From Nemertoderma westbladi (Eukaryota > Animalia > Xenacoelomorpha), in the NCBI GenBank assembly GCA_032718475.1, contig JAUCBJ010002732.1, positions 1-48,113 of the forward strand: a DNA stretch of 48,113 nucleotides, in the 5' to 3' direction. Numbering within the stretch: the first letter of the stretch is position 1; each line of letters opens with the position of its first letter. A program made the position numbers and the translations under genes. Positions 1,296 to 23,771 of the stretch are shown here, piece after piece. The notes below the pieces were generated by a model. That model was not told where the DNA came from and made no database searches. It was given only the letters and a program-made list of their open reading frames with translations.

Positions 1296-3854
1296 ATGAT
1301 GAAAATTAAAGGCAAAAGTACAGCTGAAATTTCCGATGGTGACGTGGCCACATGGACGGATGAAGTTCCGGCATTCACATCGATTCAACGCGATGTGTCT
1401 CTGTTCTCCTTGGAAGTAGTTGTTCAGCACCTCGTTATTAAACGAACTGTTCCATGCCGCATTCCGGCCATCGCATTCCGACTGATGGACTTTCCGACTC
1501 TAATGATATCCCGGCACGGCCCCCAGGATGTCGAGGATATCAAACTCACCGCCGCGATGGAGTTTGGCGACTGTCTCCCTCCTCAGCTGGAGAGTTTACT
1601 GGACATGCAAGGGAAACATGTCGTGCGAAAAGGTAAATCCTGTCTATTTAAGATCCAACCCTCTGTCTTGCGTGACCACTTCCAGTGCGTTCCAATGTAC
1701 GTTATGGTTCTCGATCTGGTACATCCGGCGCCCAAACTAGTTGGAACGGCGACGATTCCGTTGTCGGAATCCGTTCCCAGTTTGTTCGGACACACCGAAT
1801 TTCCCTCCTCCCCGCTATTGTACGGAACCCGGAACTCTTACACGATCTACAACCTAATGGGTGCTAACGTAGGGGTCATACAGACAGGGGTCAAACTTGT
1901 CAATCTCGGGAGAACCTTACTGGCTCATCTTCCCATTCGGGAGGCGCTGGAGGAGCCTTCCGAGTCGCTTTGTCCACCGCTTTTTCTTCATCAGACGTCT
2001 CGTCGAGCTGACGAGGATATGAAACCCGAACCTTCTGTCGCAGTGATTCCGTCTGCCAATAAAGACTACGATTTGGTAAATATTTGCGATTCCGCCACTC
2101 AAACAAACGAACAAGCTCTAAGAGAAACGAGAGCAACTGCGCCCAAAAAATCGCTTGATATTATTCCGAAAGATTGCGCCGACATACCGGTTGTTGGCCA
2201 GGGGATTCTGTTTCCCGCGCCTCTGTTCTACAACAGTTCGTTGGACGAGCGACCTGCTACGGCACCGGCTGCGGAAGTACCGGTTGCCTACCAACACGTA
2301 GAAGAATTTGCCGATCTCAGGCAAGGCGATTTGGATTTAATGGAGGTCCAGGGATCCCTGGGGGACGACTTGCCGCCCCCCTCTGAGCTGTTCGCTCGTC
2401 TTAAAGAACGAAAACTCAGGACAATGGATCAGAAACAACAGCCTCTTGTATCTCACCAGTCACTTAAACAGTTTCCAATTCTAAACGATTTGTTTGCAGA
2501 ATTACAAAGACTTTATAACCCGGAGGGAACACATCAACCATCAGAAAGAAAACCTAAACCGGATCAGTTAGTTAAGAAACCCACTACTAGTCGTCAGACT
2601 AAGCCGACTGGTTCCCGTAGAGACGGGACGACTGCTCATCCTCAAGGTCACCCGGTGGAACGACCGCGGTTTATGGGGCCCAAAACCCCAACGAGTCTGT
2701 CCCACAGACGGAACCGCGGGGTCCCTGACGCGACGGCCCGGGTCCCGCCGACACGCGGGTGGTTACGTAAGGACCCAGAGTACGGGAGGAGGATCTCCCA
2801 TCTCGAGTACAAGATGACTCGAACTCAAATGCTGAGGATACAACGGACCAACCCGGAACTCTACCAGGCCCTAAGACTTTATCAGGATAGAGTAGAAAGT
2901 GAAAGTAATCGTCAACCCCACCCGAAACCTCCAGTTTCGGAAGAACCATTGAGTCAACTCAATACAACTATAGTTAAAGGGAAAATTCCCGATGTTAAAC
3001 CCAAAAAAACTGTGCAAATATTCGTACCGACAACCGATGCGGTTGCAGATAATGAAGAAATTCCTCTCCCTGTGATTGACGTTGGTACCGATGAAGTTGT
3101 TGGTGATGCCGTCGATATATTATCTGGTTCGTTGACCAGTTTGTCTTTGGTAACTTCTCCATCATCTTCTACTGGCACTGCAGGTAAGGTTCCCTCGGTT
3201 ACTTCGTTACAAAAAGAAGTTGAATCAGCAAATAAGGATGACGAAAATGATTACTCGGATGATTTCGAGGAGGTCGATGAGACAGAAACCGATGCGACAC
3301 CGGAGGTGGAAGCGGATCGGAGACCGGACGCCTCTCGGAAACCGGACACCGACGCCTCTCGGAAACCGGACACTGACGCCTCTCGGAAACCGGACACCGG
3401 CGCCTCTCGGAAGCCGGACAGCGACGCCTCTCAGAAGCGGGACACCGACGACTCTCGGAAGCCGGACACCGACGCCTCTCGGAAACCGGACACCGACGAC
3501 TCTCGGAAACCGGACACCGACGCCTCTCGGAAGCGGGACACCGACGCCTCTCAGATGCCGGATATGAACCGGACGCCATTCCGACACCCTGGACGCCGCA
3601 CCAATCTAAACCGTGGGGTTTACCCGACGAATCCTCCGGTCGTCCATCGGATCAGTAAACTCGTCCCGCTCCCTCCCCGCATTGCGTCCGAGAACGCTAA
3701 CATTGCTATGACTACCGGACGATCTCCAGACCCAGGCCGTTCCTCATGCGATAGCTACGTTCCCTCCAGGTTGAGTCCCGCTGATATCGATTCCGGCGAC
3801 GAAACTGACCAAAGATCGGTCGCTTCCGTCAGCGAAATTCTCAAACATTTGTAA
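1296..3854 (+). CDS. MAP10: Microtubule-associated protein 10-like (MAP10/KIAA1383 family), single coding exon, 852 aa
   Basis: Long ORF, GC-richer than its flanks. N-terminal motifs SLFSLEVVV, PAIAFRLMDFPTL, GKSCLFKIQP and YNLMG..G.I..GVKLVNLG match the conserved MAP10 N-terminal domain as I recall it. The C-terminal half is low-complexity. Confidence 0.85.
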   Translation: MMKIKGKSTAEISDGDVATWTDEVPAFTSIQRDVSLFSLEVVVQHLVIKRTVPCRIPAIAFRLMDFPTLMISRHGPQDVEDIKLTAAMEFGDCLPPQLESLLDMQGKHVVRKGKSCLFKIQPSVLRDHFQCVPMYVMVLDLVHPAPKLVGTATIPLSESVPSLFGHTEFPSSPLLYGTRNSYTIYNLMGANVGVIQTGVKLVNLGRTLLAHLPIREALEEPSESLCPPLFLHQTSRRADEDMKPEPSVAVIPSANKDYDLVNICDSATQTNEQALRETRATAPKKSLDIIPKDCADIPVVGQGILFPAPLFYNSSLDERPATAPAAEVPVAYQHVEEFADLRQGDLDLMEVQGSLGDDLPPPSELFARLKERKLRTMDQKQQPLVSHQSLKQFPILNDLFAELQRLYNPEGTHQPSERKPKPDQLVKKPTTSRQTKPTGSRRDGTTAHPQGHPVERPRFMGPKTPTSLSHRRNRGVPDATARVPPTRGWLRKDPEYGRRISHLEYKMTRTQMLRIQRTNPELYQALRLYQDRVESESNRQPHPKPPVSEEPLSQLNTTIVKGKIPDVKPKKTVQIFVPTTDAVADNEEIPLPVIDVGTDEVVGDAVDILSGSLTSLSLVTSPSSSTGTAGKVPSVTSLQKEVESANKDDENDYSDDFEEVDETETDATPEVEADRRPDASRKPDTDASRKPDTDASRKPDTGASRKPDSDASQKRDTDDSRKPDTDASRKPDTDDSRKPDTDASRKRDTDASQMPDMNRTPFRHPGRRTNLNRGVYPTNPPVVHRISKLVPLPPRIASENANIAMTTGRSPDPGRSSCDSYVPSRLSPADIDSGDETDQRSVASVSEILKHL
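3318..3575 (+). repeat. Coding 24-bp minisatellite (DASRKPDT)n, about 10 copies, inside MAP10
   Basis: Unit gacgcctctcggaaaccggacacc is repeated in frame. Confidence 0.95.
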
Positions 3855-5317
3855 CTAACGATCCGTTATGCTTGTATTAATCTATTATTTCACATATATT
3901 TGATACTATCTCGTCTCCCAACACCTAGTTGTTACTTCATTTACAATATAATCTAACAAAACAATTTCCATTTTAATAGTATTTTCAATTTATTCCCATT
4001 CATTTTAATTAAATCGATATATAAAAATGGATGGGAAAATCAAAATATCTGACTCCGTCGTAACCTCAACCGTGTGTCGAGCTAGTTATTTATCAAAATT
4101 TTTCAAATTTTAAGCAACATCATAATAATTTGTAGAAAAATATGTTGGGGGGGGGGGGGGGGGGGAGTTATATACACTAATATATTATGGGTCATGCCTG
4201 CTAGGTCCTATCCTGTAAATTGAATGCGAAATGCTGTTTCTCATGAATGCTATGGCGGTTACTTGACTTTTAAATAAAATGTTGTTATTAATAAATTATT
4301 TCTCGACTTTTCCCACATGTGTAGTATAATATTTTTCCTTGTCATTTAATCATATTGAAGGTATAGTAGTAAGATATGGATGAAATAGCCCAGCATATTG
4401 GAGCGCCATAAGTCGTTAGCTGTACACTAAATATCGCGTGTATCGTAAGTAATTAGTCTCTTTGTATTTTATTCCCTTTTAACTATTTCCCTCCCGCTGT
4501 GTTTCATTTCCGTAACATACGGAGCTGCCCTATCTCTCTACAGGCTCTTTCCATTTTTTTAACTAACCCCAGTAATTATTCATTGCCTCTTGAGACCGAA
4601 ATGTCCAAAGTCTCTATAATTTAACCATGTCGTCATCCATTACGAGGTAGATAGTGTTGGTACACTTGGTGGATAGTGAGTAACCTATTGACTTTCACTA
4701 CCCGAGCTTCAAGCGTTGCTGAGCATAATTAAACGGACGCATATCTATCTATCTCAGGCTGCTAGGGAATAGCTGAGCAGGTGTGGGCAGTTGCGGCCCA
4801 TACTTACTACAACTGTCCCACTAAAAGTCATTTCCCTTCGGGTGAAATCTCATTTAAATTCTTCACATCTCGTTCCGCTGTACACAGAAATAATTGTTAA
4901 TTTCCTTGAGTGAACCTTCGGAAAAATTCATTTAGATTTATTCCCAGAACTCAAATTAGTTGTTGAGTTTTTTTTCGCAGATTTCCCGATTATAACTCTG
5001 TAAGGCCTGATTATAATTCCAGAGGATTTGCTCCTAACAATTGTGATAGTTAAAGCACGTGGAAATCGAAAGATTTCAGAAACATCGCATCTTCTAATAG
5101 TTTGGCGAAGCTTTAGTATTGAAACCCAATGTTATTCAATTTAAAAATTTAATAATGTTCTTACACATTAATAAAAATGCAACGAATTAAGTTCTCATTT
5201 TAATATGACCACACAAAATTATTGTTAAAAATATATATTATAAAAATGTCAAAATTGTTAATGACTTTCTACGTATTAACATTAGTACAAAATTAATGGA
5301 GAATTGTTTTATTATTA

Positions 5318-6140
5318 CATGACCTACTATAGATACTCAGGTGAAACAAATAAAAACTTAATAGCTCCAGTAGTTTTCGAGCATTCGAGGTATGAGGAGT
5401 TCTTGGCACCCATACCATATCAACACCTCTCTGGATTGATAAAATTACTCAATATACGAAAACGATTCACCGGGAATCTGTTCCGACTTCAGTGTCCAGA
5501 TTGCCTCAAAATTTGAGTGTCATATGTCGTGATCAGCATCCCAGAAAACCCACAATGTCAATATTAGGTTGATTTGGTATTGATTTTTGATATCTTTACT
5601 ACTTTACTTCGATATGTTTGATGTAGAGCTCAGTAGCCAAACTGTACGGCAAATTTAACACTTTTGGCTGTTTGACAATTTCAAGCTACTTGCACTTTTG
5701 GTGCTCTTTTGATATCTATTAAAAAATGAAAATGAAAATTTTGCTTCTAATCTCGTGTTCGATTTCTAATATTGAATTCGATAACCAAAAAAGCATGGCC
5801 TATATGGTTATACCAAAGTCTTTGAAGGGTGTTTTTATTTTATGTAATATATAATTAATATGTAATTAATCAATGTATGTAATATAATTAATAATAATAT
5901 GTAAAATTCCGAAAGGTTCCGATATGGTATGGGTGCCAGGAACTCCTCATATCTCGAAAACTACTGGAGCTATTAAATTTTTATTTGTCTCATCTGAAAG
6001 AGAACATAATTTTAGTTAGGGACAAGTACTTTCGACGCGCTAGAGAAATAGTTTCAGTGTTTCTATATAAGAGAAATAACTGGCCCACTGAATTTTGGGG
6101 CTTTGCGCAGCTTGGCGGGTCGTATCTATAGTAGGTCATG
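5318..6140. mobile_element. Non-autonomous DNA transposon (MITE), P-superfamily-like
   Basis: Perfect 19-bp TIR catgacctactatagatac (5318-5336 / 6122-6140), flanked on both sides by attatta (7-bp TSD). An inner imperfect inverted repeat of about 100 bp lies at ~5338-5435 / ~5905-5996. CA termini with a 7-8 bp TSD suggest the P superfamily (inference). Confidence 0.8.
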
Positions 6141-7655
6141 ATTATTACTTTAATTATTTTTTCATTACAAAATTAATGTAGTTGAATTATTTAGATCATA
6201 GTATCGTTAATAGCACCTATTGAATAAGGGCGTATTTGCCACTCAGTATAAATCTGCTCCTCATAATTTCTATGAGTTAGGATTAATTTGAAATGAGGAT
6301 TAAGTCGTTGAATTTACATATTTCACATATTGTAATTATTTTCCTTCAAATATGTAATTGGGAACCGAGAGTAACTTCAAATCAAAAGCAGGGACATCAG
6401 TTTGCGACAAGGTGCTCATAGTTCTAACAAACACACTGATTTGAAACCAGGAACTCAAATGTGTAACTGGGAACCCAAATACATAACCAGATGATCTAAT
6501 TTGTAACTGATAACTACAATTTGTTACAGATTTGTAACCAGAAACTCAGATTTGTTACCTCTGCCTTTTGTCTCTTTTATTTGAAATAAAAAGTCGGTTC
6601 CTTATCGGGCCGCTAGGCCCGTCACTAGTATGACTATGGTAAATATTAAAGCAGTATTTAACTCTAACCTATCTGCAATACAGGCCGTGTTACAGTGATT
6701 CCCATCAATGTACTTAGGCAGACTTTTTAATATTATCATAATTTATTATTAATGAAATATATTTATTGCGCAATTTTACTGTATGGCTATATAATAATTA
6801 CATTTACATTTTACATAACCGTCACCTTGTAAAGGCTATTTAAATTAATTAAAAATCTCAACTATTTCACAGACTTTTATTTACTCTAATACTAAATGTT
6901 GAGGTCAGAGACCTCCGTTGTCTTGACGACGTGTTTGCAATTTGCATACGGTTACCTGCTACTAATTGCTCCCAAGCCTGTATCTTTTTGCCTTTCGCCT
7001 TCAACAATTTTATAATAGATATCAATCCACTAAAAAATCATGTTACTGTGTCTGCTAGGCCTGTCAGATATCCACTGAACCACTGCCGCCAATGCATCAA
7101 CTGGTATCACCCAGATAGGAGATGGCCGCAAATTTGTATGCAAAGGGTGGCCCATCAATGCATGACACTGTCAGATGTGGAATAGCAGCTGCATCTCCAT
7201 ATAATACAATACGAAGTCAGCCTTAAATATGTTATGCTTATTGTCCTAGGCAGATAATACATTCACTTCCTTCAGCTGATTCCATCCGAATAAGAACTAG
7301 TTTAATTGCAACTCGATTTCAACTCATACTGATGAATACAGTATAAATAAAGGCACACGGGTGGGAATCATTCTGTTGTTACTTAAATCTTTGATGATAC
7401 TTTACAATTTTTGCAGAGATCTGATTGCATCTTTTCCATTTAAAATTGCTACCATTTTTAGTTATAGTTATGGTTGATTTTTAATTATTTATTCATTTTG
7501 TAACTTTACGGGATGTATTTGTGGAAAAACGAAATTATTATATATATGTATGTACTAAATATTTTGTTATTTTTGTGCATGTGCATGTGCATGTTAAAGT
7601 TTAAAATGTTTAAAGTATCAATATCGAAAGCTGTATAGATGTTAGTTACACGAAC

Positions 7656-10600
7656 ATGGATGGTTTAAATATAGACGAGTTGACGATAATGGCTAAAATT
7701 AATTGCAACACGATTGCTATTATAAACATGTCAACAAAAGATGAAAATTTTGCAATTCACAAAGCCAATTTCCATCATTGTTCAGAGCCGGATGTCAGAT
7801 CAAATAGTGATATCACGAGACAACACTGCGAATTGTCATTTTCAAACGTTTCTTCCAAAAAACAAAGACATAATTCTGCGCCATCATTTCTGAACTATAT
7901 TCCTTCGAGTAATATTGACAAAGTTGACGCAGTTAGAACGTCTTTTTACCGAAATTCCACCAACCATGCTCAACATGAGTTAATTGCCCCTGGCGTATAT
8001 CCCCAGAAACATTTTCTCAAAAGATCATTTGCTTTCGAGTACCGTAGGCCGTACCTCTACAGAGGGGATCCTCTTGATAGATCTACCCAAAACGCCTCTG
8101 TTAAATCAGAATATTCAGCTAGTGAGTCATGTAATGTCCAAAACGAGTTACCCGTCCCTAATTCTTCGACGGAAAACGGAGAAATGAACGTTAACAGTCA
8201 GCCCCTGTCACCCTCAAGGAATGTACAAGTGATGAATGACTCTATATCGTCCGCAATAGATGGACAATTAGAGAATGAATCTCTGTCGCTCAAATGGGGT
8301 GGTCATCGACACATGAAACTTAACAATATAGAATCATATTTGTGTTTCATTCATGTTAACAACTTGGGGAACATCCAGAAAGGTTGCAGTTCTGTATTCT
8401 ATGTTACGCGTTGTGGTAATATATCTTCTAATGGAACAGCCCCAATTATGAAAGAAATAGTAAGGGATACTGATGCTGTAGCCGCAGTTGATAATAATTG
8501 TGCGCCTACTATTGATGAGAACGAAGTCAAACTGCAAGCGAATAATAGTATACCTACAGTTGAGAAGGATGGACATAATGGTAGCATAGCTACAATCGCA
8601 TTAATTTATAATTCACAATGCATTAATACGCTTAACGCATTTACGAAAGAAGTGATTAACAAATCAGAGAACAGTGATAAAACCGACACTATTTTACACG
8701 AGACTATTGATAAACCAGAGTGCAGTGATAAAACTGATGCGATTACACACGCGACGGTTGACAAAACAAAGGACATTGTTGAGATGGATACGATTTCAAA
8801 CGAGACTATTGACAAACCAGAGGACAGTGATGAAACTGATACCATTTCAAACGAGACTATTGACAAACAAGAGCGCAGTGATAAAACTGTTTCGATTTCA
8901 CACGAGACTGTTGACAAACCAGAGGACAGTGATGAAACTAATACCATTTCACACGAGACTGTTGACCAACCAGAGGACAGTGATGAAACTGATACCATTT
9001 CAAACGAGACTATTGACAAACAAGAGCGCAGTGATAAAACTGTTTCGATTTCACACGAGACTGTTGACAAACCAGAGGACAGTGATGAAACTGATACCAT
9101 TTCAAACGAGACTATTGACAAACAAGAGCGCAGTGATAAAACTGTTTCGATTTCACACGAGACTGTTGACAAACCAGAGGACAGTGATGAAACTGATATG
9201 ATTTCACACGAGACTGTTGACAAACCAGAGTACAGTGATAAAACTGTTTCGATTTCACACGAGACTGTTGACAAACCAGAGGACAGTGATGAAACTGATA
9301 TGATTTCACACGAGACTGTTGACAAACCAGAGTACAGTGATAAAACTGTTTCGATTTCACACGAGACTGTTGACAAACCAGAGGACAGTGATGAAACTGA
9401 TACCATTTCAAACGAGACTATTGACAAACAAGAGTGCAGTGATAAAACTGTTTCGATTTCACACGAGACTGTTGACAAACCAGAGGACAGTGATGAAACT
9501 GATATGATTTCACACGAGACTGTTGACAAACCAGAGTACAGTGATAAAACTGTTTCGATTTCACACGAGACTGTTGACAAACCAGAGGACAGTGATTTGA
9601 CTGATACCATTTCACCCGAGACTATTGACAAACCAGAGTGTAGTGATAAAACTGAATCGATTTCACACGAGACTGTTGACAAACCAGAGGACAGTGATGA
9701 AACTGATACCATTTCAAACGAGACTATTGACAAACAAGAGCGCAGTGATAAAACTGTTTCGATTTCACACGAGACTGTTGACAAACCAGAGGACAGTGAT
9801 GAAACTGATATGATTTCACACGAGACTGTTGACAAACCAGAGTGTAGTGATAAAACTGTTTCGATTTCACTCGAAACTATTGACAAACCAGAGGACATTG
9901 ATGAGACTGATACCATTTCACACGAGACTATTGACAAACCAGAGTGCAGTGATAAAAATGTTTCGATTTCACACGAGACTGTTGACAAACCACCAGAGGA
10001 AAGTGATGAAACTGATACCATTTCATACGAGACTATTAATAAACCAGAGTGCAGTGGTAAAACTGGTTCGATTTCACACGAGACTGTTGACAAACCAGAG
10101 TGCAGTGATAAAACTGTTTCGATTTCACACGAGACTGTTGACAAACCAGAGGACATTGATGAGACTGATACCATTTCACACGAGACAGTTGACAAACCAG
10201 AGGACAGTGATAAAACTGTTTCGATTTCACACGAGACTGTTGACAAACCAGAGGACATTGATGAGACTGATACCATTTCACACGAGACAGTTGACAAACC
10301 AGAGGACAGTGATAAAACTGTTTCGATTTCACACGAGACTGTTGACAAACCAGAGGACATTGATGAGACTGATACCATTTCACACGAGACAGTTGACAAA
10401 CCAGAGGACAGTGATAAAACTGTTTCGATTTCACACGAGACTGTTGACAAACCAGAGGACAGTGATGAAACTGATACTATTTCACACGAGACAGTTGACA
10501 AACCAGAGTGCAGTGATAAAAATGTTTCGATTTCACACGAGACTGTTGACAAACCACCAGAGAAAAGTGATGAACCTGATACGATTTCACACGAAACTAT

Positions 10601-13600
10601 TGACAAACCAGAGGACAGTGATAAAACTGTTTCGATTTCACACGAGACTGTTGACAAACCAGAGGACATTGATGAGACTGATACCATTTCACACGAGACA
10701 GTTGACAAACCAGAGTGCAGTGATAAAACTGTTTCGATTTCACACGAGACTGTTGACAAACCAGAGGACATTGATGAGACTGATACCATTTCACACGAGA
10801 CAGTTGACAAACCAGAGTGCAGTGATAAAACTGTTTCGATTTCACACGAGACTGTTGACAAACCAGAGGACATTGATGAGACTGATACCATTTCACACGA
10901 GACAGTTGACAAACCAGAGTGCAGTGATAAAACTGTTTCGATTTCACACGAGACTGTTGACAAACCAGAGGACATTGATGAGACTGATACCATTTCACAC
11001 GAGACAGTTGACAAACCAGTGTGCAGTGATAAAACTGTTTCGATTTCACACGAGACTGTTGACAAACCAGAGGACATTGATGAGACTGATACCATTTCAC
11101 ACGAGACAGTTGACAAACCAGAGTGCAGTGATAAAACTGTTTCGATTTCACACGAGACTGTTGACAAACCAGAGGACATTGATGAGACTGATACCATTTC
11201 ACACGAGACAGTTGACAAACCAGAGGACAGTGATAAAACTGTTTCGATTTCACACGAGACTGTTGACAAACCAGAGGACATTGATGAGACTGATACCATT
11301 TCACACGAGACAGTTGACAAACCAGAGGACAGTGATAAAACTGTTTCGATTTCACACGAGACTGTTGACAAACCAGAGGACAGTGATGAAACTGATACTA
11401 TTTCACACGAGACAGTTGACAAACCAGAGTGCAGTGATAAAAATGTTTCGATTTCACACGAGACTGTTGACAAACCACCAGAGAAAAGTGATGAACCTGA
11501 TACGATTTCACACGAAACTATTGACAAACCAGAGGACAGTGATAAAACTGTTTTGATTTCACACGAGACTGTTGACAAACCAGAGGACATTGATGAGACT
11601 GATACCATTTCACACGAGACAGTTGACAAACCAGAGTGCAGTGATAAAACTGTTTCGATTTCACACGAGACTGTTGACAAACCAGAGGACATTGATGAGA
11701 CTGATACCATTTCACACGAGACAGTTGACAAACCAGAGTGCAGTGATAAAACTGTTTCGATTTCACACGAGACTGTTGACAAACCAGAGGACATTGATGA
11801 GACTGATACCATTTCACACGAGACAGTTGACAAACCAGAGTGCAGTGATAAAACTGTTTCGATTTCACACGAGACTGTTGACAAACCAGAGGACATTGAT
11901 GAGACTGATACCATTTCACACGAGACAGTTGACAAACCAGAGGACAGTGATAAAACTGTTTCGATTTCACACGAGACTGTTGACAAACCAGAGGACATTG
12001 ATGAGACTGATACCATTTCACACGAGACAGTTGACAAACCAGAGGACAGTGATAAAACTGTTTCGATTTCACACGAGACTGTTGACAAGCCAGAGGACAG
12101 TGATGAAACTGATACTATTTCACACGAGACAGTTGACAAACCAGAGTGCAGTGATAAAAATGTTTCGATTTCACACGAGACTGTTGACAAACCACCAGAG
12201 AAAAGTGATGAACCTGATACGATTTCACACGAAACTATTGACAAACCAGAGGACAGTGATAAAACTGTTTCGATTTCACACGAGACTGTTGACAAACCAG
12301 AGGACATTGATGAGACTGATACCATTTCACACGAGACAGTTGACAAACCAGAGTGCAGTGATAAAACTGTTTCGATTTCACACGAGACTGTTGACAAACC
12401 AGAGGACGAGACAGTTGACAAACCAGAGTGCAGTGATAAAACTGTTTCGATTTCACACGAGACTGTTGACAAACCAAAGGACAGTGATGAAACTGATACT
12501 ATTTCACACAAGACAGTTGATAAACCAGAGTGCAGTGATAAAAATGTTTCTATTTCACACGAGACAGTTGACATACCAAAGGACATTGATGAAACTGGTA
12601 CCATTTCACACGAGACTATTGACAAACCAGAGTGCAGTGATAAAACTGATACGATTTCACACGCGACGTTTGACAAAACAGAGGACAGAGATAAAACTGA
12701 TGCGATTTCACATGAGACAGTTGACAAACCAGAGGATATTGACAATACTGATACGAGTTTACACGAGACTGTTGACAAACTGGAAGACATTGATAAAAAT
12801 GTTTCGATTTCACACGAGACAGTTGACAAACCAGAGGACAGTGATGAAACTGATACTATTTCACACGAGACAGTTGACAAACCAGAGCGCAATGATAAAA
12901 ATGTTTCGATTTCACACGAGACTGTTGACAAACCACCAGACGACAGTGATGAAACTGTTACCATTTCACACGAGACTATTGACAAACCAGAGTGTAGAGA
13001 TAAAACTGTTTCGATTTCACACGAGTCTGTTAACATACCAAAGGACATTGATGAAACTGGTACCATTTCACACGAGACTATTGAAAAACCAGAGTGCAGT
13101 GATAAAACTGATACGATTTCACACGCGACGATTAACAAACAAGAGTGCAGTGATAAAACTGTTTCGATTTCAAACGAGATTGTTGACAAACCAGAGGACA
13201 TGGACAAAACTGATGCGGGTTTACACGAGACTGTTGACAAACTGGAAGACATTGATAAAAGTGTTTCGATTTCACACGAGACTGTTGACATACCAGAGGA
13301 CAGTGATGAAACTGGTACCATTTCACACGATACTATTGACAAACCACAGTGCAGTGATAAAACTGATACGATTTCACACGCGACGATTGACAAAACAGAG
13401 TGCAGTGATAAAATTGATTCAATTTCAAACGCGACTTTTGACAAACCAGAGGAAATTTATAATACTGATACGAGTTTACATGCGACTGTTGACAAACTGG
13501 AAGACATTGATAAAACTGTTTCGATTTCACACGAGACGGGTGAAAAACTAGAGGACAGTGGTAAAACTGATATTAATTCACACGAAACTGTTGACAAACC

Positions 13601-16193
13601 AGAGGAGATTGATAAAACTGATACAATTTCTCATGAGATTGTTGACAAAACAGAGGACATTGATAAAACTGATACGATTTCTCCCGAGACTGTAGACAAA
13701 CCAGAGTGCAGTGATAAAACTGATTCAATTTCAAACGTACCTTTTGACAAACCAGAGGAAATTGAAAAAACTGATACGAGTTTACATGCGACTGTTGACA
13801 AACTGGAAGACATTGATAAAACTGTTTCGATATCACACGAGACTGGTGAAAAACCAGAGGACAGTGATAAAACTGATACTAATTCACACGAAACTGTTGG
13901 CAAACCAGAGGAGACTGATAAAACTGACACGATTTCACACGAGACTGTTGACAAACCAGAGCGCAGTGATAAAACTGTTTCGATTACACACGAGACTGTT
14001 GACAAACCAGAGGACAGTGATGAAACTGATATGATTTCACACGATACTATTGACAAACCAGAGTGCAGTGATAAAACTGTTTCGATTTCACACGAGACTG
14101 TTGACAAACCAGATGACAGTGATAAAATTCATACAATTTCACACGAGACTGTTGACAAACCAGAGCGCAGTGATAAAACTGTTTCGATTACACACGAGAC
14201 TGTTGACAAACCAGAGGACAGTGATGAAACTGATATGATTTCACACGATACTATTGACAAACCAGAGTGCAGTGATAAAACTGTTTCGATTTCACACGAG
14301 ACTGTTGACAAACCAGATGGCAGTGATAATATTCATACTATTTCACACGAGACTGTTGAAAAACCAGAGTGCAGTGATGTTTCAATTTCAAACGCGACTT
14401 TTGACAAACCAGAGGAAATTTACAAAACTGATACGGGTTTACACGAGACTGTTGACAAACTGGAAGTCATTGATAAAACTGTTTCGATTTCAGACGACAC
14501 TGTTGAAAAACCAGAGGACAGTGATAAAATTCATACTATTTCACACGAGACTGTTGACAAACTAGAGGAAATTGACAAAACTGATACGGGTTTACACGAG
14601 ACTGTTGACAAACTGGAAGACATTGATAAAACTGATACGATTTCACACGAGGCAGTTGAAATACTAGAGGATGTTGATGAAACTGGCACGCTTTCGCACG
14701 AGATTGTTGACAAACCAGAGGACATTGGAAAATCTGATATGATTTCACACGAGACTGTTGTCAAACCAAGGGGCATTTATAAAACCCATACAATTTCACA
14801 TGAGACTGTTGACAACCAAGATGACATTGATAAAATTGATGCGATTTCGCACACGACTGTTGACAAACCACATGACTTTAAAACAACTGATACAATTTCA
14901 TACGACACTGTTGACACTCCAGAGCTAATTGATAAAACTGATACGATTTCGCACGCGACTGTTGACAAACCTGACGACATTGATAAATCTGATACAATTT
15001 CACATGATACTTTTGATAAACAAGAGGCCAAACCGGAGGACATTGAAAATATGGATACAATTATACAAGAGGGCAAGGTTGTTGACAAAGCTGAGGATTT
15101 TGACAAACGGGAAATAGTTTCTGTTGGAAATGCTAACAAGCAAGATAAGATTAACACAGCGGGAGTAGGTTTATATGAATCTATCGACATACAGATTGCT
15201 GACAGGCAGGTTGAGTGTGAGTCACACAAGGAGCATTACTTACAAACACAGGCGAATGCCTGCAACAGTTCTTATAAAGAAATTAACGCAAACGGTAACC
15301 ATCATGGTAATATAGAGCCTCTTATCAATAATAATCACGGCATGGATAAAAATATTGACTATATTGAAAAACTGGAACTTATAGGTCAAATTGATCATGT
15401 TTATAATGAAGAGCAGCATACTGGCGAAAGTTACTGTGGTGACAAAATAAACGAATTCGGAAAACACAGCAATAAATTAACTCAATTAAATGCGAAGATA
15501 AATGTAGCCTCCCCGTATCAGAATAACATTGTTGATGATGAATTATCTTGTCATTTATTGACTAAAACCCCTAGAATTATTAATAACAAATCGCAAGAGG
15601 TTTTTGATCTTGAGTTACCACATTCATCTGGAACTACCCAAACTACAACCCCCGGGAAACCATGGTTAGAAATGGGCGCTATTAATTGGGAGGAGAAACA
15701 GGAATCAAACGAGTATTGTTGTGCAGAGCGAGGCTTCTGCGATTATCAATTCGCTGCCAGCATTATTGGCAATAATAAGGCGGCGCTGGCAGGACACCCG
15801 GTTGCTTTAGAAACTAGATTCCCTACTGACAATCTCCAGCCTTCAAATGATAATCATTATTGCTTTGATGAGGAATATTCAATAAATAGTGAATTTGAGC
15901 GAAACCGTTGTTACCTAGATTCTGGTTCTTTAGGCTTTAGTTCGTTAGTACCTGCCCTACCTCGAGTACCTACCCTACCTCGTGCTTATAGCTTTAATGC
16001 AATAAATTTTTGTAATTTGAATACCAGCTTTTATTGTTACGAGAATACACGAAACTACTTAGACTGCCCTCCATTTGAATTTGATATGGATAACGAACTG
16101 GGTCCCACTACAGAGCAGAATTTATCTGATGCCGAGTGTCCCCCTTATATGGTAGACGAGGAGGGAAGATTACTGCATCAAGGAGATAATGAG
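7656..16193 (+). CDS. Exon 1 of giant repeat / CAPON-like protein (2846 codons, mostly 17-aa acidic repeats)
   Basis: 8.5-kb uninterrupted ORF with non-repetitive open flanks of about 340 aa and 390 aa. Phase-0 donor GAG|gtacac at 16193/16194, followed by AT-rich sequence. Confidence 0.75.
8670..15010 (+). repeat. Coding 51-bp tandem repeat (about 120 units; 102-bp dimer ISHETVDKPEDIDETDT / ISHETVDKPECSDKTVS)
   Basis: Directly visible. The length variants I could see all keep the frame. Confidence 0.97.
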
Positions 16194-16506
16194 GTACACA
16201 CACTACTGTACAATAATTTGTCTTTATTATTAAAATTTATTTAAAGAAAAATAACTAATAAATTTATTTCTACTCTTTATTTAACCCGTAGGCATTTTAA
16301 AAGCATGTCATTATTAATGACCAAGTAAAAAACTTACTGAATACATCACCTAAACTACTCACTAATTGTAATAAATGATAAGCCAAAATATAGAAAAAAA
16401 TCACCAAAAGAATGGATAAATATCCAGAAAATACTGAAACCATCACAAAAGAGTCTGTCTACGTCCACCTTACAGTTTCACTTTTGTACATGCACTATCT
16501 GCCTAA

Positions 16507-16813
16507 AGGCCCGTTCACATCCAACGGAACGGTACACCGCGCGGTGTACCGCAGGGCCAGCGGTACACCGCTGAGTGTGAACGACCTAACAGGTAGTTGT
16601 GCGCTAAACCGCGCGGTTTACCGCAGCCCATTTAAACAATGTTAAATCAATTAAGGTAATTTCCTGTTGAATTCACAGTCGACAGATAGACAATCAGTTA
16701 CCGCAACGGTACCGTTGGGTGTGAACGGGCTCCGCGTAATGTACCGCTGGCTTACCGCTTCAATACCGCCAGACTACTTTACCGCTCACACACCGTTGAA
16801 TGTGAACGGGGCT
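16507..16813. mobile_element. PIF/Harbinger-type MITE (307 bp) in intron 1
   Basis: TIR aggcccgttcacatccaacgg / ccgttgaatgtgaacggggct (2 mismatches). TAA on both sides (16504-16506, 16814-16816). Confidence 0.85.
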
Positions 16814-16975
16814 TAACGTGTCCTCCTTCGAACATACATTACTTCCTACCTAACGTGTCCTCCTTCGTCGACCGACATCATTAGACTTACGATACATTAT
16901 AAACATATACTATACGAGATAAACATTATATTCTCGCTAAATTTCATAAATACTATGTACGTATTATTTTTGCAG

Positions 16976-17189
16976 CAAATTATTGTCTACGAGAATGGTG
17001 AAACAACGCCCATGTCACCCACCAAGCAGGTGGACACACAGACTGAAGGGGCGTCCCCTATATGGACCCGTAGAGATGACGTCACTCCCAGTGAGATAGA
17101 CTCCAGAAGGGGCTGCCAGTCCACCAGTGAATCGCCTCGACGCCTATTGGATAACACTCATAGGGTGCAGCGCTCAAAGACAACCAATG
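16976..17189 (+). CDS. Exon 2 of giant repeat / CAPON-like protein (QIIVYENG...RSKTTN)
   Basis: Acceptor tatttttgcag at 16975 (phase 0) and donor G|gtagtt at 17190 (phase 1). Open and GC-richer than flanks; phases match exons 1 and 3. Confidence 0.75.
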
Positions 17190-17659
17190 GTAGTTTTTTC
17201 GAGACAGGGGAGAAACTGGACGCAAATACCATGTGGGATTTGGGATTAAGGAATTTGGGAATAAGGGATTTGGGAATAAGGTATTTGGGATTTGGGAATA
17301 AGGTATTTGGGATATGGGAATAAGGTATTTGGGATTTGGGATTAAGGTATTTGGGAATATGGAATTTGGGATCTGCCATTACATTAGTGATTATCAGTAT
17401 TTATTTGTTGATCGGCCATTATTGGTTGGTTGACTGAAGAAGATACGCAATGCGTATCTCATTATGCCTCATAATAGCCCCTCGTCAACAAGTCAACCCC
17501 ATCGACTAACGGCACTGGCTGTTTCCGCTGACGGGGTTCAGTTGAACAGCGCGTCCCTTTGGGATCTGGGAATATGAAATTTGGGATTTGGAAATAATGA
17601 ATTTGAGTAAATCATTTGGGCTTTGGAAATAGGGAATTTGGGATTTTTAATCTGTAAAT

Positions 17660-18860
17660 AAAACGTATTACAAGTTTATGCAGGTTAGTAAAGGAGCAGG
17701 CTATAGAGCCGGGTAGATAGAACCCAAACAATAAACAATAGTTAACACATGTTACAAGATTATGCAGGTTAGTATTAGTAAAGGAGCAGGCTATAGAGGA
17801 GGGTAGGTAGAACCAAAACAATAAACGATACATGTTAAAAGATTATGCAGGTTAGTAAAGGAGCAGGCTATAGAGGCGGGTAGAAAAACCAAAACAATAA
17901 ACGATAGTTAACACATGTTACAAGATTATGCAGGTTAGTAAAGGAGCAGGTTATATAGGCGGGTAATTAGAACCAAAACAATAAACGATAGTTAACACAT
18001 GTTACAAGATTATGCAGGTTAGTAAAGGAGCAGGTTATAGAGGAGGGTAGATAGAACCAAAACAATAAACGATAGTTAACACATGTTACAAGATTATACA
18101 GGTTAGTAAAGGAGCAGGCTATAGAGGAGGGTAGATAGAACCAAAACAATTAACGATAGTTAACACATGTTATAAGATCATGCAGGTTAGTAAAGGAGCA
18201 GGTTAAAGATGAGGGTAGATAGAACCAAAACAATTAACGATAGTTAACACATGTTATAAGATCATGCAGGTTAGTAAAGGAGCAGGTTAAAGAGGAGGGT
18301 AGATAGAACCAAAACAATTAACGATAGTTAACACATGTTATAAGATCATGCAGGTTAGTAAAGGAGCAGGTTAAAGAGTAGGGTAGATAGAACCAAAACA
18401 ATAAACGATAGTTAACACATGTTAAAAGATTATACAGGTTAGTAAAGGAGCAGGTTATAGAGGAGGGTAGACAGAACCAAAACAATAAACGATAGTTAAC
18501 ACATGTTACAAGATTATGCAGGTTAGTAAAGGGGCAGGCTATGGAGGAGGGTAGGTAGAACCAAAACAATAAACGATAGTTAACACATGTTAAAAGATCA
18601 TGCAGGTTAGTAAAGGAGCAGGTTAAAGAGGAGGGTAGATAGAACCAAAACAATTAACGATAGTTAACACATGTTATAAGATCATGCAGGTTAGTAAAGG
18701 AGCAGGTTAAAGAGGAGGGTAGATAGAACCAAAACAATTAACGATAGTTAACACATGTTATAAGATTATACAGGTTAGTAAAGGATCAGGCTATAGAGGA
18801 GGGTAGATAGAACCAAAACAATAAACGATAGTTAACACATGTTACAAGATTATGCAGGCT
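17660..18860 (+). repeat. 84-bp tandem array, about 14 copies
   Basis: aaaggagcagg recurs at 17940, 18024 and 18108 (period 84). Confidence 0.95.
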
Positions 18861-18954
18861 AGTCGGTGGGGTTGACTTGTTGACAAGAGGCTATTATGAG
18901 TCGTAATGAGATACGCATTGCGTATCTTCTTCGTTGAACCAATAATGGCAGATT

Positions 18955-20085
18955 CTAAATTTCTTATTCCCAAATTCCAAATACATTCCTTATTCCCAAA
19001 TCACAAATACCTTAATCCCAAATCCCAAATACCTTATTCCCAAATCCCAAATACCTTATTCCCAAATCCCAAATACCTTATTCCCAAATCCCAAATACAT
19101 TAATCCATGTGAATCCATGTTATCTATGTGAATAAATGAGACTTAAAGAGTTAAAAAAAAAAATACATTAATCCCAAATACCTTATTCCCAAATCCCAAA
19201 TACCTTATTCCCAAATCCCAAATACCTTATTCCCAAATCCCAAATACCTTATTCCCAAATCCCAAATACCTTATTCCCAAATCCCAAATACCTTATTCCC
19301 AAATCCCAAATACCTTGTTCCCAAATCCAAAATACCTTATTCCCAAATCCCAAATACCTTATTCCCAAATCCCAAATACCTTATTCCCAAATCCCAAATA
19401 CCTTAATCCCAAATCCCAAATACCTTATTCCCAAATTCCAAATACCTTATTCCCAAATCACAAATCCCTTAATCCCAAATACCTTATTCCCAAATCCCAA
19501 ATACCTTATTCCCAAATCTCAAATACCTTAATCCCAAATACCTTATTCCCAAATCCCAAATACATTAATCCCAAATACCTTATTCCCAAATCCCAAATAC
19601 CTTATTCCCAAATACCTTATTCCCAAATCCCAAATACCTTATTTCCAAATCCCAAATACCTTATTCCCAAATCCCAAATACCTTATTCCCAAATCCCAAA
19701 TACCTTATTCCCAAATCCCAAATACCTTATTCCCAAATCCCAAATACCTTATTCCCAAATCCCAAATACCTTATTCCCAAATCCCAAATACCTTAATCCC
19801 AAATACCTTATTCCCAAATTCCAAATACCTTATTCCCAAATCACAAATCCCTTAATCCCAAATACCTTATTCCCAAATCCCAAGTACCTTATTCCCAAAT
19901 CCCAAATACCTTAATCCCAAATCCCAAATACCTTATTCCCAAATCCCAAATACATTAATCCCAAATACCTTATTCCCAAATCCCAAATACCTTATTACCA
20001 AATCCCAAATACCTTATTCCCAAATCCCAAATACCTTATTCCCAAATCCCTTAATCCCAAATACCTTATTCCCAAATCCCAAATT
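18955..20085 (+). repeat. 22-bp minisatellite (ataccttattcccaaatcccaa)n, right arm of the foldback element
   Basis: Directly visible. Reverse-complement copies lie at 17235-17370 and 17558-17645. Confidence 0.95.
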
Positions 20086-20412
20086 CACCATTTCTGGGAT
20101 TTGCGTCCAGTTTCCCCTGGTGAGATATTTTTCTGTGTGTGTCCATCCCCCCCCCCCCCCCCCCCCCCCCCTATCTGTTTTTTTCTGTTTCAATGTTTAC
20201 TGGACCCATTTCTGAAATCGTTTCTATATTTCAGTATTTATTGTTATTTATCAATATAATTATTTTATAAATTCAATTATTATTTTTATTAAACATGTTT
20301 CTAGATCCACATCGACACAATTATTATGTACACCACTACTTTCATATAAAAGTTTACGATACCGTATATTATATCAGTGTAGCTGTATTTTAATGTTTAT
20401 GTTATATTTCAG

Positions 20413-20561
20413 ATTTCTTTGCCGTGAGCCAACATTTTCAGGTGCAATTACTGCAACAACAAGTTCGCCAGCAGCAGCAGCAGACGCAGGTAGCGATGGC
20501 CCAAATACAACTCCTTAAAGAGCAAGTAGACGCTGAAACAAGGACTCGGTTAGAAGCCCAG
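20413..20561 (+). CDS. NOS1AP: Exon 3, CAPON/NOS1AP-like coiled coil ([50 protein letters not shown])
   Basis: Acceptor tatttcag at 20412 and donor CAG|gtcaga at 20562. My translation matches the NOS1AP motif [37 protein letters not shown]. Not in the ORF track. Confidence 0.85.
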
Positions 20562-20580
20562 GTCAGATTCATTACTATAA

Positions 20581-21437
20581 GGGGTCATCCATAAAAGACG
20601 TCCGAGCTAGAGGGGGGGGGAGGGGGGTCGGCCAAATCCGGACATTTACGGACAGGGGGGGGGGGGGGTGTAGCAAAATTCGGACGTCTGTTTTTAAATT
20701 TTTTATTGTCAACTTTGCAGCCCATATGGCCAAATGTAGTCTAAACTTAACTTTGGGATGGGCACCTAGGCCCCGCATATTTAAAGTGAAAGTAAACGTT
20801 TGGCTAGGTGTCACAGACGATGCTATTAAGGTCAGCTTTAGATGTCTATCAAACACACTAACTCCCCGGGGCACTGCTTAAGAACAGCCGGAGGTTAATT
20901 TTCGCGAGAGTTATATTTGGATATTTTAATGAAATATTATCGTATTACTATTAATCGTGTAATGCTTATGCTGTAGGTCCAGTGAGGCGAATCGTCACCG
21001 GCGAGGCAAGTCTGTTGGTTTGATATTATTATTTATTTAATATTGCTAATTTTAATTGTGGCTTCAAGTTTCAGAATCTGGGGAGACGGCCAACCTAACC
21101 CTTGATGGGTGTACCTGTACACTGTACAGTATACGTGAAGTTTATCATGTATTACAATGTATTAAGCCTGTACCGTAACGCTATATTATACTGGCTAATA
21201 AGTAGTTTCAGTTTGATAATGTACTGGTCAGTACTGCGGTCCCCTATTCTTTACTAGTGCCCACTCCCGGCAAGCCTAAGGCTGCACGATAAATAGGCTA
21301 CCGGTAAATAGGCTAAAATTCGGACGTCCGAATAGGGGGGAGGGGGGGGGGGTCAAAAACCGGACATTCGCGGACAGGGGGGAGGGGGGGTCCAAAAATT
21401 CGGGATCGAGACTCGGACGTCTTTTATGGATGACCCC
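20581..21437. mobile_element. PIF/Harbinger-type MITE (857 bp) in intron 3
   Basis: TIR ggggtcatccataaaagacgtccgag / ctcggacgtcttttatggatgacccc. TAA TSD (20578-20580, 21438-21440). Subterminal cggac + poly-G repeats. Confidence 0.9.
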
Positions 21438-22219
21438 TAACAACAAACTGAAAGTATTTAAAAACCCAAAATTGTGCGAGCTGTCTGTTTCCAACAAATT
21501 TTTATAAATTCCCTTACATGACCTCCTGTAGTAGTCCATATCCCTTACACAATGACTAAAGTGTATACAGTAGGCTATATCGACAGACAAGAACCAAAGC
21601 CTTAATTATGGTGGATAAAAAAAGAAACTAACCACGACAGTTACCCGGTCATGTCCCTTAACATTTATAGCAGTTATTGAATGTGCTTGTTGGCTGTTTT
21701 AGATTTTACACCCATAAGTCGAGGCAAATATAGTAATTGAATAAAATTGCGCAGGAGTAACAATTAAATTATAACGTGTTATTATACGTGTTATTATAGT
21801 TATTGTTACCGTGATACGCATCCCTAAAGATGGTACAGAGTACATACAATTGGTACGACATACGAGCTAGCACAACGGAATATACAATGTAAACAAGTGA
21901 ATATATGACGTGTAAATAGATGGGTCTCTATTATACGTAATTGAATATTTAAGAGGTAGCAATATACTGTAAAATAAAGAAAATAAATAAATAAATATAA
22001 AAAAAATATACTGTCATTAATTTCTTGCACATTAAATCCAACAACATCACCTGACTCGAAACGTATGTCTGTCAGTTCCTTTAAAAATATAACCTTCCAT
22101 TCACCATCTATTCGCTTGACACAATATTATACGTAGTATGTTATATATGTTCTCTGTACATATGTTATTGTACACCGAACAACATATGTTAATAAAGAAG
22201 ACTTTGCTTACGCTTACAG

Positions 22220-22378
22220 GATCGCATTAACCAGCTGTTGATACAGAACGGGGCTTTACTACGTCACGTCCAGGGTTTGGTGTCGCAAGTACAGAATCTC
22301 GAACTGGTAACAGAAGGGGAATTCACTCCCGCCGATGAAATACTCAAACAACCCAAATACAAATCCAAAAATAGCTAA
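22220..22378 (+). CDS. NOS1AP: Exon 4 (probably terminal), CAPON/NOS1AP-like (DRINQLLIQNGALLRHVQGLVSQVQNLEL...KSKNS*)
   Basis: Acceptor cttacag at 22219, phase 0. Continues the NOS1AP motif ARVHQLLLQNKDMLQHISLLVKQVQELEL. Stop at 22376-22378 and AATAAA near 22529. An internal donor (ctg|gtaaca, ~22307) cannot be excluded. Confidence 0.8.
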   Translation, partial: DRINQLLIQNGALLRHVQGLVSQVQNLELVTEGEFTPADEILKQPKYKSKNS

Positions 22379-22807
22379 TTTCAATAACTTTATAATTATA
22401 CATAGTACTTAATACTGATTCCCTAAAACTTTCTGACAGACAGAGTCAGACACTGTTTCTACCCCACTATATTTGACACTTTGTACGGGGCGGGCCTCAT
22501 GTAGTGATTAAAGGTATTTGGCATATAAAATAAAGTGTATAATTTTGTGCTCTCTAGTGGTATACAAATACTGTACGTTATAGTGGTATAGAAGTAAGAA
22601 CCCACCAATAATCTGCAATCAATATTCTCGCGATAATAATTTCATAATTTGACAACTGTTTTTTAGGCTGCAGTGGCTAATAACACCATCACTCCCATTA
22701 AATATGGGGAAATTAAATTCTTACAAATCGATATTAATATTACGATGTTAAACAGTCTTAGGAGTACTAAACAATCTTTAATTCGATTTTATTCAATTTT
22801 CGATACA

Positions 22808-23771
22808 TTTTCGGTGGTTGGCTCTCGGCCCAACCATCACAAATAGACCACACCGACCTAGACCCGCAGGTCATTCCGCAATAACCTCGCCCTGCGGTAC
22901 GGCCTCGCACCCCCTGACCTTCCCACTAACTGCGAGGGCTGTGGCGAGCCATTTGATACGGCACACGCCCTCAGCTGCAAGGTCGGGGGCTGGTCATTCG
23001 TCGCCACAACGAGATCCGGGACGTCTTCGGTGACCTACTGGCGGGGGCCTTCGGTTCGAACAATGTCGAAAGGGAGGTCACCCTGTCTGGAGGTCACCTG
23101 GACTCCCAGGGGCATGAGGTCGAGGGGGTGAGGGCTGATCTGGTCTCACGGGGTGTTTGGGCGAACCAGGTTGTGGCGTCTTTCGACGTCTCGATTATAA
23201 ATCTTGACGCCACTTCCTACGTTCGCTCCAACAGCTCCGCTGAGACCTTACTCGCCCAGAGGGAGCGGGTCAAACGCGTCCACTACCAGGAGGCCTGCGA
23301 AACACGCAGGATGCACTTCACACCGCTGTGTGTTCCACTGATGGAGTTTGGGGTGCGGAGGCGGCGGTCTTCATCCTTCACCTTGCTGAGACTCTGCAGT
23401 CTAAGCAGGTCGGTATGAGGCAGCGTGGGTTGGGGGTGGTGCTTGGTGCGGTGAGGCGACGACTGCAGTTCGGTCACCTTCGGGCGACCTCTCTGTGCCT
23501 GAGGGGTGGGAGGAGGCCTTGGCGTGATCTCGGGTTTGGGGATGGGGCGGGGATCCGGTGGATAGACCAGGACATGTACTAGGGGGGAGGGGGGGGGGTT
23601 GCTATTGTTGTCGTTCTTCGGGGGGAATGGGCAAGACTATTATTTAATATTGTATAACCCGGTTTACTTATTGTCAGTTATCGGTTGAGTTTGGTGAACT
23701 GTAGTTTTAAACGCTCAATTAATGTTAATATAAATTCATTACATAATTACAGTAAGTTAAATAAAAAAAAA
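22808..23771 (+). mobile_element. 5'-truncated, frameshifted non-LTR retrotransposon with restriction-like endonuclease (CRE-like clade)
   Basis: Joining frames gives LALRYG..P..CEGCGEPFDTAHALSCKVGG/LVIRRHNEIRD...RADLVSRGVW...FDV...FTPLC/STDG...LRATSLCLRG, i.e. a CCHC finger plus RLE. A-rich tail at 23761-23771. TSD tttcgataca at 22798-22807 and 23772-23781. Confidence 0.9.

What the first reader, a model, noticed from the sequence alone, without database searches (positions are those of the whole stretch)
7656..22378. Giant (~3019 aa) acidic repeat protein spliced to the CAPON/NOS1AP coiled coil, with no PTB domain visible
Seen: four exons (7656-16193, 16976-17189, 20413-20561, 22220-22378) with GT-AG sites and compatible phases 0/1/0. 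The last two exons are missing from the ORF track and encode the NOS1AP coiled coil. Established: CAPON/NOS1AP normally has an N-terminal PTB domain and, in vertebrates, a C-terminal PDZ ligand. I see no PTB exon between MAP10 and 7656, and the predicted end is KSKNS. Inference: either a novel architecture in which a roughly 2100-aa repeat spacer replaces the PTB domain, or a giant alternative exon/isoform of a CAPON gene whose PTB exons lie upstream of the window with MAP10 nested in an intron.
Basis: partly seen in the sequence, partly recalled or inferred. Interest (0 to 1): 0.75.

Follow-up and report, generated by a model that had tools for sequence, protein, structure and literature searches.

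The report
Giant repeat exon beside CAPON coil
In an unidentified animal, an unbroken 8.5-kb reading frame of about 125 acidic repeats lies just upstream of the coiled-coil exons of the adaptor gene CAPON/NOS1AP and is likely spliced onto them as an alternative first exon, which would give a giant version of a known kind of CAPON form lacking the usual PTB domain.

Summary
The four-exon model is open (3019 aa, all GT-AG, phases 0/1/0). Exons 3 and 4 are true NOS1AP coiled-coil exons, and the intron between them sits at the same codon in many other relatives. No PTB domain is detectable anywhere in the window. The 8.5-kb frame looks coding: both non-repeat flanks are open, with about 125 17-aa acidic units between them. 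The key junction 16193/16976 is unproven. Composition turns intron-like right at 16193, but the donor is weak, an AATAAA follows the frame's own stop, and no RNA or genome could be examined. A PTB-less CAPON is not new in itself. A leafhopper has both a PTB form and an alternative-N-terminus form sharing 289 of 290 downstream residues, a spiny lobster has a 333-aa alternative N-terminus, and human CAPON-S starts inside an intron. Best reading (0.40): a giant alternative-first-exon isoform with an ankyrin-long-exon-like, likely disordered spacer. Main rival (0.28): a separate intronless repeat gene. No relative of the giant exon was found, and the scan has not noted this elsewhere. Verdict: new variant of a known kind, modest interest.

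The parts
7656..8657 (+). Non-repeat N-terminal part of the giant frame (334 codons), starting at an ATG with A at -3 and G at +4; no known domain
   Evidence: Open versus 0 of 20,000 shuffles; ATG context; no Pfam hit; no PTB match by hhalign, probability 0.1%
8659..15032 (+). Array of about 125 in-frame 51-bp units (17 aa; D+E 31%, S+T 26%, aromatic 0.7%), with higher-order duplications at 102-, 717- and 921-nt offsets; likely disordered spacer
   Evidence: AlphaFold of an 8-unit stretch gave mean pLDDT 35.6 and no secondary structure (weak evidence)
15033..16193 (+). Non-repeat C-terminal part of the giant exon (387 codons), ending at the proposed phase-0 donor
   Evidence: Open versus 0 of 20,000 shuffles; no homologue among 1719 candidates; no Atlas hit; pLDDT 31
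16194..16244 (+). Read-through tail of the ORF (16 codons plus TAA), intron-like in composition, followed by AATAAA at 16257
   Evidence: GC falls from 0.42 to 0.20 at 16193; codon score -0.68 versus -0.60 for the intron; AATAAA list
16976..17189 (+). Exon 2 (71 codons, phase 0 to 1), Ser/Thr/Pro-rich linker with no detectable homology
   Evidence: Acceptor among the top 10 of 2885 AG sites by my ad hoc score; codon score +0.41 in this frame; no match to the NOS1AP profile
20413..20561 (+). Exon 3: first half of the NOS1AP coiled coil, ending at a conserved phase-0 intron
   Evidence: 48 of 99 representatives read through this intron position; same donor position in locus L001
22220..22378 (+). 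Exon 4: second half of the coiled coil and a short tail to TAA; possible internal phase-0 donor at 22306; AATAAA at 22529
   Evidence: hhalign probability 95%, E 3e-8; donor and polyA scan
1296..3854 (+). MAP10 gene, single coding frame, same strand, 3.8 kb upstream; it would be nested if the PTB exons lie further upstream
   Evidence: PF14924 E 1.7e-8; translation

Best explanation
The 8.5-kb repeat frame is likely an alternative first coding exon of this animal's NOS1AP/CAPON gene, predicted to splice onto exons 2-4 and give a 338-kDa acidic protein with no PTB domain, while the ordinary PTB exons likely lie upstream of the window. Shown: the open frame, the repeat array, the NOS1AP coiled-coil exons with a conserved intron, and no PTB in the window. 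Inferred: the 16193/16976 splice, the start at 7656, and upstream PTB exons that would splice to exon 2 and skip the giant exon. Mechanism (inferred): the coiled coil would dock the protein on CAPON partners or on other CAPON chains. The roughly 2100-residue acidic array would act as a disordered spacer or tether whose length matters more than its sequence, as proposed for repeat arrays in giant ankyrin exons. [quoted passage not shown]
For: (1) Composition turns intron-like exactly at 16193: GC 0.42 to 0.20; the 16 tail codons score like intron. (2) Donor 16193 is phase 0, as exon 2 needs; 3 of 11 GT sites in 15951-16244 are phase 0. (3) My scan found no other exon candidate in 1-1250 or 3855-7613 to feed exon 2. 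(4) The ATG at 7656 has a strong context and coding-like composition begins at about 7614. (5) Precedent: Clastoptera P0210 (alternative N-terminus, only the last PTB helix) and P0236 (full PTB) share 289 of 290 downstream residues. Alternative N-termini run from about 72 aa (P0210) to about 333 aa (Panulirus P0203). Human CAPON-S has its own 5' end in intron 8 (PMC1201690, passages). (6) Exons 2+3 give 121 aa up to the conserved intron, within the 111-190 aa PTB-to-intron distance of 21 PTB-bearing representatives, so exon 2 fits an ordinary linker. (7) Size, unit length and composition (S,E,T,D,K,P = 63%) match ankyrin long exons (mean 8103 bp, repeats 36-228 bp, these residues >55%; PMC5135030, passages).
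Against: No junction was observed. The donor at 16193 is weak (5.5 on my ad hoc scale versus 8.0 for 20561 and 10.4 for rhophilin), and AATAAA follows the ORF's own stop by 13 nt. The conserved motif of the arthropod alternative exon is absent (best E 1.9, outside the exon), and those isoforms join the last PTB-helix exon, of which the window has no trace (E >= 5). Upstream PTB exons would make MAP10 a same-strand nested gene. Exon 2 has no detectable homology. Repeat units vary near-neutrally: 60 non-synonymous to 17 synonymous distinct variants against 117 to 30 possible. The longest of 99 representatives is 1085 aa, so no giant relative backs the model.
Confidence: 0.4

Rival explanations
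1. The 8.6-kb ORF (7656-16244) is a separate intronless gene for an acidic repeat protein, lying beside or inside an intron of NOS1AP, and exons 2-4 are fed only by exons outside the window.
For: The ORF has its own start, stop and an AATAAA 13 nt downstream. The donor is weak. The genome has long single-exon coding stretches (MAP10; 846 nt of rhophilin). No sequence link exists between the giant frame and any CAPON protein.
Against: The last 16 codons are intron-like. AATAAA/ATTAAA is common in this AT-rich DNA (3 within 16200-16500). The phase matches exon 2.
Confidence: 0.28
2. This is a NOS1AP gene or paralogue that has lost its PTB exons altogether, so the giant repeat protein is its only product.
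For: No PTB in 48 kb. A complete same-strand gene, MAP10, sits 3.8 kb upstream. The tail after the conserved intron (52 aa) is shorter than in all 21 PTB-bearing representatives measured (54-510 aa), which hints at a degraded or derived copy.
Against: Only 7.6 kb of upstream DNA is visible, and in human the short-form start lies 70 kb or more downstream of SNPs in introns 2-3 (PMC1201690). The coiled coil is well conserved (up to 72% identity). Known PTB-less forms come from PTB-bearing genes.
Confidence: 0.15
3. The giant frame is an internal cassette exon, as in giant ankyrins, so the product keeps its PTB domain and has the spacer inserted between PTB and coiled coil.
For: A fair acceptor lies inside the frame at 7786 (score 8.6, phase 1). 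Ankyrin long exons are alternatively included giant exons of the same size and composition.
Against: Entry at 7786 would leave 57 upstream codons open by chance (about 0.02 at the stop rate; my arithmetic). The best acceptor nearby, 7417, lies upstream of the in-frame stop that bounds the ORF at 7614.
Confidence: 0.1
4. The frame is an unexpressed coding-looking satellite or a recent pseudogene, and the array length may be partly an assembly product.
For: Near-neutral variation among units; exact internal duplications up to 428 nt; no relatives found.
Against: Both unique flanks are open in the same frame (0 of 20,000 shuffles each). The array has 0 stops in this frame versus 7-432 in the other five. 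The three introns carry inverted-repeat insertions while the exon has no frame-breaking insertion.
Confidence: 0.07

Closest known systems
NOS1AP/CAPON (vertebrate NOS1APa/CAPON-L, NOS1APc; invertebrate orthologues)
   Same: Coiled-coil segment, up to 72% identical over exon 3, with an intron at the same codon as in L001 and many representatives.
   Different: No PTB domain, no C-terminal PDZ ligand or C1orf226-type extension, a 52-aa tail, and a predicted 2846-aa first exon; the longest of 99 representatives is 1085 aa.
PTB-less alternative-N-terminus CAPON isoforms of arthropods (Clastoptera P0210, Rhodnius P0215, Panulirus P0203) and C. elegans DYC-1
   Same: An unrelated, variable-length, low-complexity N-terminus replaces most of the PTB domain ahead of the same coiled coil; P0203 and P0215 also end shortly after it. 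DYC-1 is the CAPON relative at muscle dense bodies (PMC3623643 and PMC8125261, passages); that it has a PTB-less muscle isoform is recalled, the paper was not held.
   Different: Those N-termini are 72-333 aa, carry a shared KKLSFREPE motif and join the last PTB helix. The window's exon is about 9 times longer than the longest, has neither feature and is built of tandem repeats.
Human CAPON-S (NOS1AP-S)
   Same: PTB-less product with its own 5' end inside an intron (PMC1201690, PMC10647562, PMC4735351; passages).
   Different: 211 aa with about 18 novel residues, and it keeps the PDZ ligand.
Long exons of giant ankyrins (Drosophila Ank2-XL, UNC-44, AnkG/B)
   Same: Single exon of about 8 kb, rich in S/E/T/D/K/P, with lineage-specific repeat arrays proposed as molecular spacers (PMC5135030, passages).
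   Different: No ankyrin exons were seen in the window; here the exon is predicted to be first and to join a CAPON coiled coil. This is analogy, not homology.

Membership tests
NOS1AP/CAPON | Conserved coiled-coil segment | tested here: met
   (E 9e-20 and 2e-8)
NOS1AP/CAPON | Orthologous intron within the coiled coil | tested here: met
   48 of 99 representatives read through at this codon; donor at the same codon in L001
NOS1AP/CAPON (canonical long form) | N-terminal PTB/PID domain in the predicted protein | tested here: not met
   No hit in the window by tblastn, HMM pieces, hhalign or Pfam
NOS1AP/CAPON gene | PTB exons elsewhere in the same gene | not testable with these tools
   No whole genome is held for this window
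NOS1AP/CAPON (vertebrate a-form) | C-terminal PDZ ligand (DEIAV in P0001, P0003, P0005, P0006) | tested here: not met
   Predicted end KSKNS; no downstream homologous exon. Invertebrate representatives also end otherwise
Arthropod-type PTB-less CAPON isoform | KKLSFREPE motif in the alternative first exon | tested here: not met
   Profile from 7 sequences gave best E 1.9, outside the exon
Arthropod-type PTB-less CAPON isoform | Splice onto the exon with the last PTB helix | tested here: not met
   Profile piece for that helix gave E >= 5 in the window
Giant-exon isoforms (ankyrin type, by analogy) | Single multi-kb exon, S/E/T/D/K/P-rich, with a repeat array | tested here: met
   8538 nt, 63% of these residues, 51-bp unit versus PMC5135030
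Giant-exon isoforms (ankyrin type, by analogy) | Inclusion of the giant exon in a spliced mRNA | not tested
   The one run search listed no RNA holder, so no reads were laid

The most novel reading that the evidence does not exclude
A CAPON gene in which a 125-unit acidic repeat has wholly replaced the PTB domain, turning a small signalling adaptor into a 338-kDa tether anchored by the CAPON coiled coil: a second adaptor family, after the ankyrins, to evolve a giant spacer exon.
Probability: 0.15. Interest if true: 0.55.

Novelty: new variant of a known kind. Interest (0 to 1): 0.35.

Why it matters
If the junction is real, this is by far the largest CAPON form seen in these searches and suggests that the conserved coiled coil, for which I found no described role in the passages read, can work without PTB or PDZ ligand as an anchor for a long spacer. 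It would extend the giant-ankyrin pattern (lineage-specific repeat exons used as rulers or tethers) to another adaptor. Its weight is limited: it rests on one unidentified genome, PTB-less CAPON forms and giant repeat exons are both known, and the splice is unproven.

Tried and rejected
RNA evidence: the single run search (window 14000-17300, kind rna) listed no RNA holder; this is no evidence either way. No genome was held, so the upstream scaffold could not be searched. Exact look-up of 6 window proteins: 0 of 6 in the collection. A rhophilin search placed the animal no closer than about 55-58% identity to fishes, amphioxus, hemichordates and arthropods alike, so the taxon stays unknown. Relatives of the giant exon: none among 1719 candidates of 212-678 aa, no usable Atlas hit for either end, none in viral contigs; these blanks do not show novelty. 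The Pfam CD45 hit on the array (E 1e-11, 0 passing stretches) was rejected as a low-complexity artefact. Degenerate PTB in the flanks or exon 2: rejected (hhalign probability <= 0.12%). The idea that exon 2 keeps the G-x-T..SP linker motif of homologues: a profile from 25 of 80 linker segments did not rank exon 2 among the 13 rows shown, so rejected. Amino-acid selection on repeat units: not detected; 97 exact 17-aa units of 113 intervals were used and 16 irregular intervals dropped. Further 3' exons from the donor at 22306: no homologous exon downstream and only mobile-element-like candidates; exon 4's good codon score after 22306 is circular, because exon 4 was in the training set. AlphaFold models of the repeat (pLDDT 35.6) and the C-flank (31.3) were too poor for fold searches. 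PMC12660744 passages and PMC9576154 passages gave nothing on the coiled coil or on invertebrate isoforms. Lecroisey 2008 (PMC2262962) was not held. No complex prediction was run.
Full report
Observation. Four segments (7656-16193, 16976-17189, 20413-20561, 22220-22378) have GT-AG ends and phases 0/1/0, and join into 3019 codons ending KSKNS. The calculated product is 338 kDa, pI 4.3, net charge about -470. The first segment lies in a stop-to-stop ORF at 7614-16244. Its middle is a 51-bp tandem repeat of about 125 units of 17 aa, 31% D+E and 0.7% aromatic, flanked by 334 and 387 non-repeat codons.

Is the giant frame coding? Probably. Each flank is open where 0 of 20,000 base shuffles are (mean 22.5 and 27 stops), and both are in the same frame as the array. 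The array has 0 stops in that frame and 14, 432, 42, 124 and 7 in the other five. A codon score trained on five coding stretches of the window prefers this frame in every part, though the flanks score only -0.16 to +0.15. The introns carry inverted-repeat elements (for intron 2; introns 1 and 3 by reading), while the exon has no frame-breaking insertion. Against strong constraint: among 97 regular units (16 of 113 intervals were irregular and dropped), distinct variants are 60 non-synonymous to 17 synonymous, against 117 to 30 possible. The frame is kept but the residues drift, as expected of a spacer. Exact internal duplications up to 428 nt show recent expansion, or some assembly uncertainty in length. 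AlphaFold gave no fold for the repeat (pLDDT 35.6) or the C-flank (31.3); with such shallow alignments this is only weak support for disorder.

Exons 3 and 4 are NOS1AP. Exon 3 found 7 NOS1AP-family proteins among 30 candidates and 99 representatives at up to 72% identity. A profile of 24 full-length homologues hit exon 3 (E 9e-20) and exon 4 (E 2e-8), and nothing else below E 1.7 among 2353 six-frame segments; hhalign gave exon 4 probability 95%. The intron between them is conserved: 48 of 99 representatives are gene calls that run into Val and unrelated sequence at exactly this codon, the signature of reading through a GT donor; 47 continue into the second half, 1 is aberrant and 3 lack the motif. 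Locus L001 shows the donor and the next exon directly. Exon 2 has no detectable homology, but its acceptor is among the best 10 of 2885 AG sites by my ad hoc score, it scores as coding (+0.41), and it ends in the phase exon 3 needs.

No PTB in the window. TBLASTN, six exon-sized profile pieces and the whole domain (best E 0.87), hhalign of both flanks and exon 2 and Pfam found none. No genome is held, so upstream DNA could not be searched. Only 7.6 kb precede the ATG, and 2.6 kb of that is MAP10 on the same strand.

The open question is the junction 16193/16976. For it: GC falls from 0.42 to 0.20 across 16193; the 16 codons between the donor and the ORF's stop score like intron (-0.68 versus -0.60); the phase fits (3 of 11 nearby GT sites are phase 0); and my scan found no other upstream exon candidate. 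Against it: the donor is weak (5.5 on an ad hoc scale, where exon 2's donor scores 5.7, exon 3's 8.0 and rhophilin's 10.4), and AATAAA lies 13 nt after the stop. The one run search listed no RNA holder, which is no evidence. I put the splice at about 0.6-0.65. The ATG at 7656 has A at -3 and G at +4 and coding-like composition begins near 7614, which favours a first exon over entry at the acceptor at 7786.

Precedent. Among the representatives, P0203 (Panulirus), P0210 (Clastoptera), P0215 (Rhodnius) and the unnamed P0221 carry an alternative N-terminus with a shared KKLSFREPE motif, joined to the last PTB helix or a diverged form of it. P0210 and the PTB-bearing P0236 from the same species share 289 of 290 downstream residues, so one gene likely makes both forms. 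Human CAPON-S begins in intron 8 and lacks PTB (PMC1201690, passages; also PMC10647562 and PMC4735351, passages). Only PTB-containing isoforms reach the membrane and bind SCRIB (PMC11607453, passages). C. elegans DYC-1 is the CAPON relative at dense bodies (PMC3623643 and PMC8125261, passages); its two-isoform structure is recalled, as the paper was not held. The window's exon lacks the shared motif and the PTB-helix exon, so it is at most a parallel case. In 21 PTB-bearing representatives the distance from the end of PTB to the conserved intron is 111-190 aa, and exons 2+3 give 121 aa, so exon 2 could be the ordinary linker that PTB exons splice to; the tail here (52 aa) is just below their range of 54-510. 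In size, unit length and composition the exon resembles ankyrin long exons (mean 8103 bp, repeats of 36-228 bp, S/E/T/D/K/P >55%, proposed spacers; PMC5135030, passages; here 63%). This is analogy only.

Novelty. The longest of the 99 representatives is 1085 aa, and searched only up to 2000 aa, so a giant relative could have been missed there. The listings of eight paper searches showed no giant CAPON; the library omits most subscription papers, and I read no supplements. No relative of the giant exon was found. The scan's notes held nothing on this locus or its look-alikes.

Verdict. The feature is real at the DNA level. The most likely reading is a giant, PTB-less, alternative-first-exon isoform of NOS1AP (0.40); rivals are a separate intronless repeat gene (0.28), a PTB-lost gene (0.15), an internal giant exon (0.10) and a non-functional frame (0.07). 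The spacer-and-anchor mechanism is inferred throughout. New variant of a known kind; interest 0.35.

Noticed in passing
window 17200-20125: Intron 2 is almost wholly filled by a roughly 2.9-kb foldback/TIR element: 22-bp-repeat arms (17231-17380 against 18963-20084, up to 92% complementary) around an 84-bp satellite, starting about 15 nt after the exon 2 donor.
   Followed up: partly
window 16500-16820 and 20580-21440: A palindromic MITE-like element in intron 1 and a terminal-inverted-repeat element in intron 3, seen by reading the sequence.
   Followed up: no
window 22860-23580 and 42400-42800: Frameshifted fragments resembling the restriction-like endonuclease region of non-LTR retrotransposons (family label recalled, not searched).
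   Followed up: no
window 35843-36601 (-): MXRA7-like gene: PF25473 helical domain, E 7.6e-19, at the C-terminus of an acidic frame.
   Followed up: partly
window 46903-47748 (+): Rhophilin with HR1 and the first part of BRO1 in one 846-nt exon, 54-58% identical to diverse bilaterians; suggests an intron-poor gene.
   Followed up: partly
window 1296-3854 (+): MAP10 in one frame, with its own in-frame 24-bp (8-aa) repeat of about 10 copies near the C-terminus.
   Followed up: no
window 8606-13456 (-): A 1616-codon antisense ORF over the array; a by-product of the repeat, as it does not extend into the flanks and that strand's frames carry stops.
   Followed up: yes
P0203, P0210, P0215, P0221, P0230, P0231, P0234: A conserved KKLSFREPE motif marks an alternative N-terminus of arthropod CAPON proteins that lack most of the PTB domain; several are annotated only as uncharacterized.
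   Followed up: partly
window 32971-35469: A 25-bp satellite (about 84 copies) followed by an inverted 26-bp block of related sequence.
   Followed up: no
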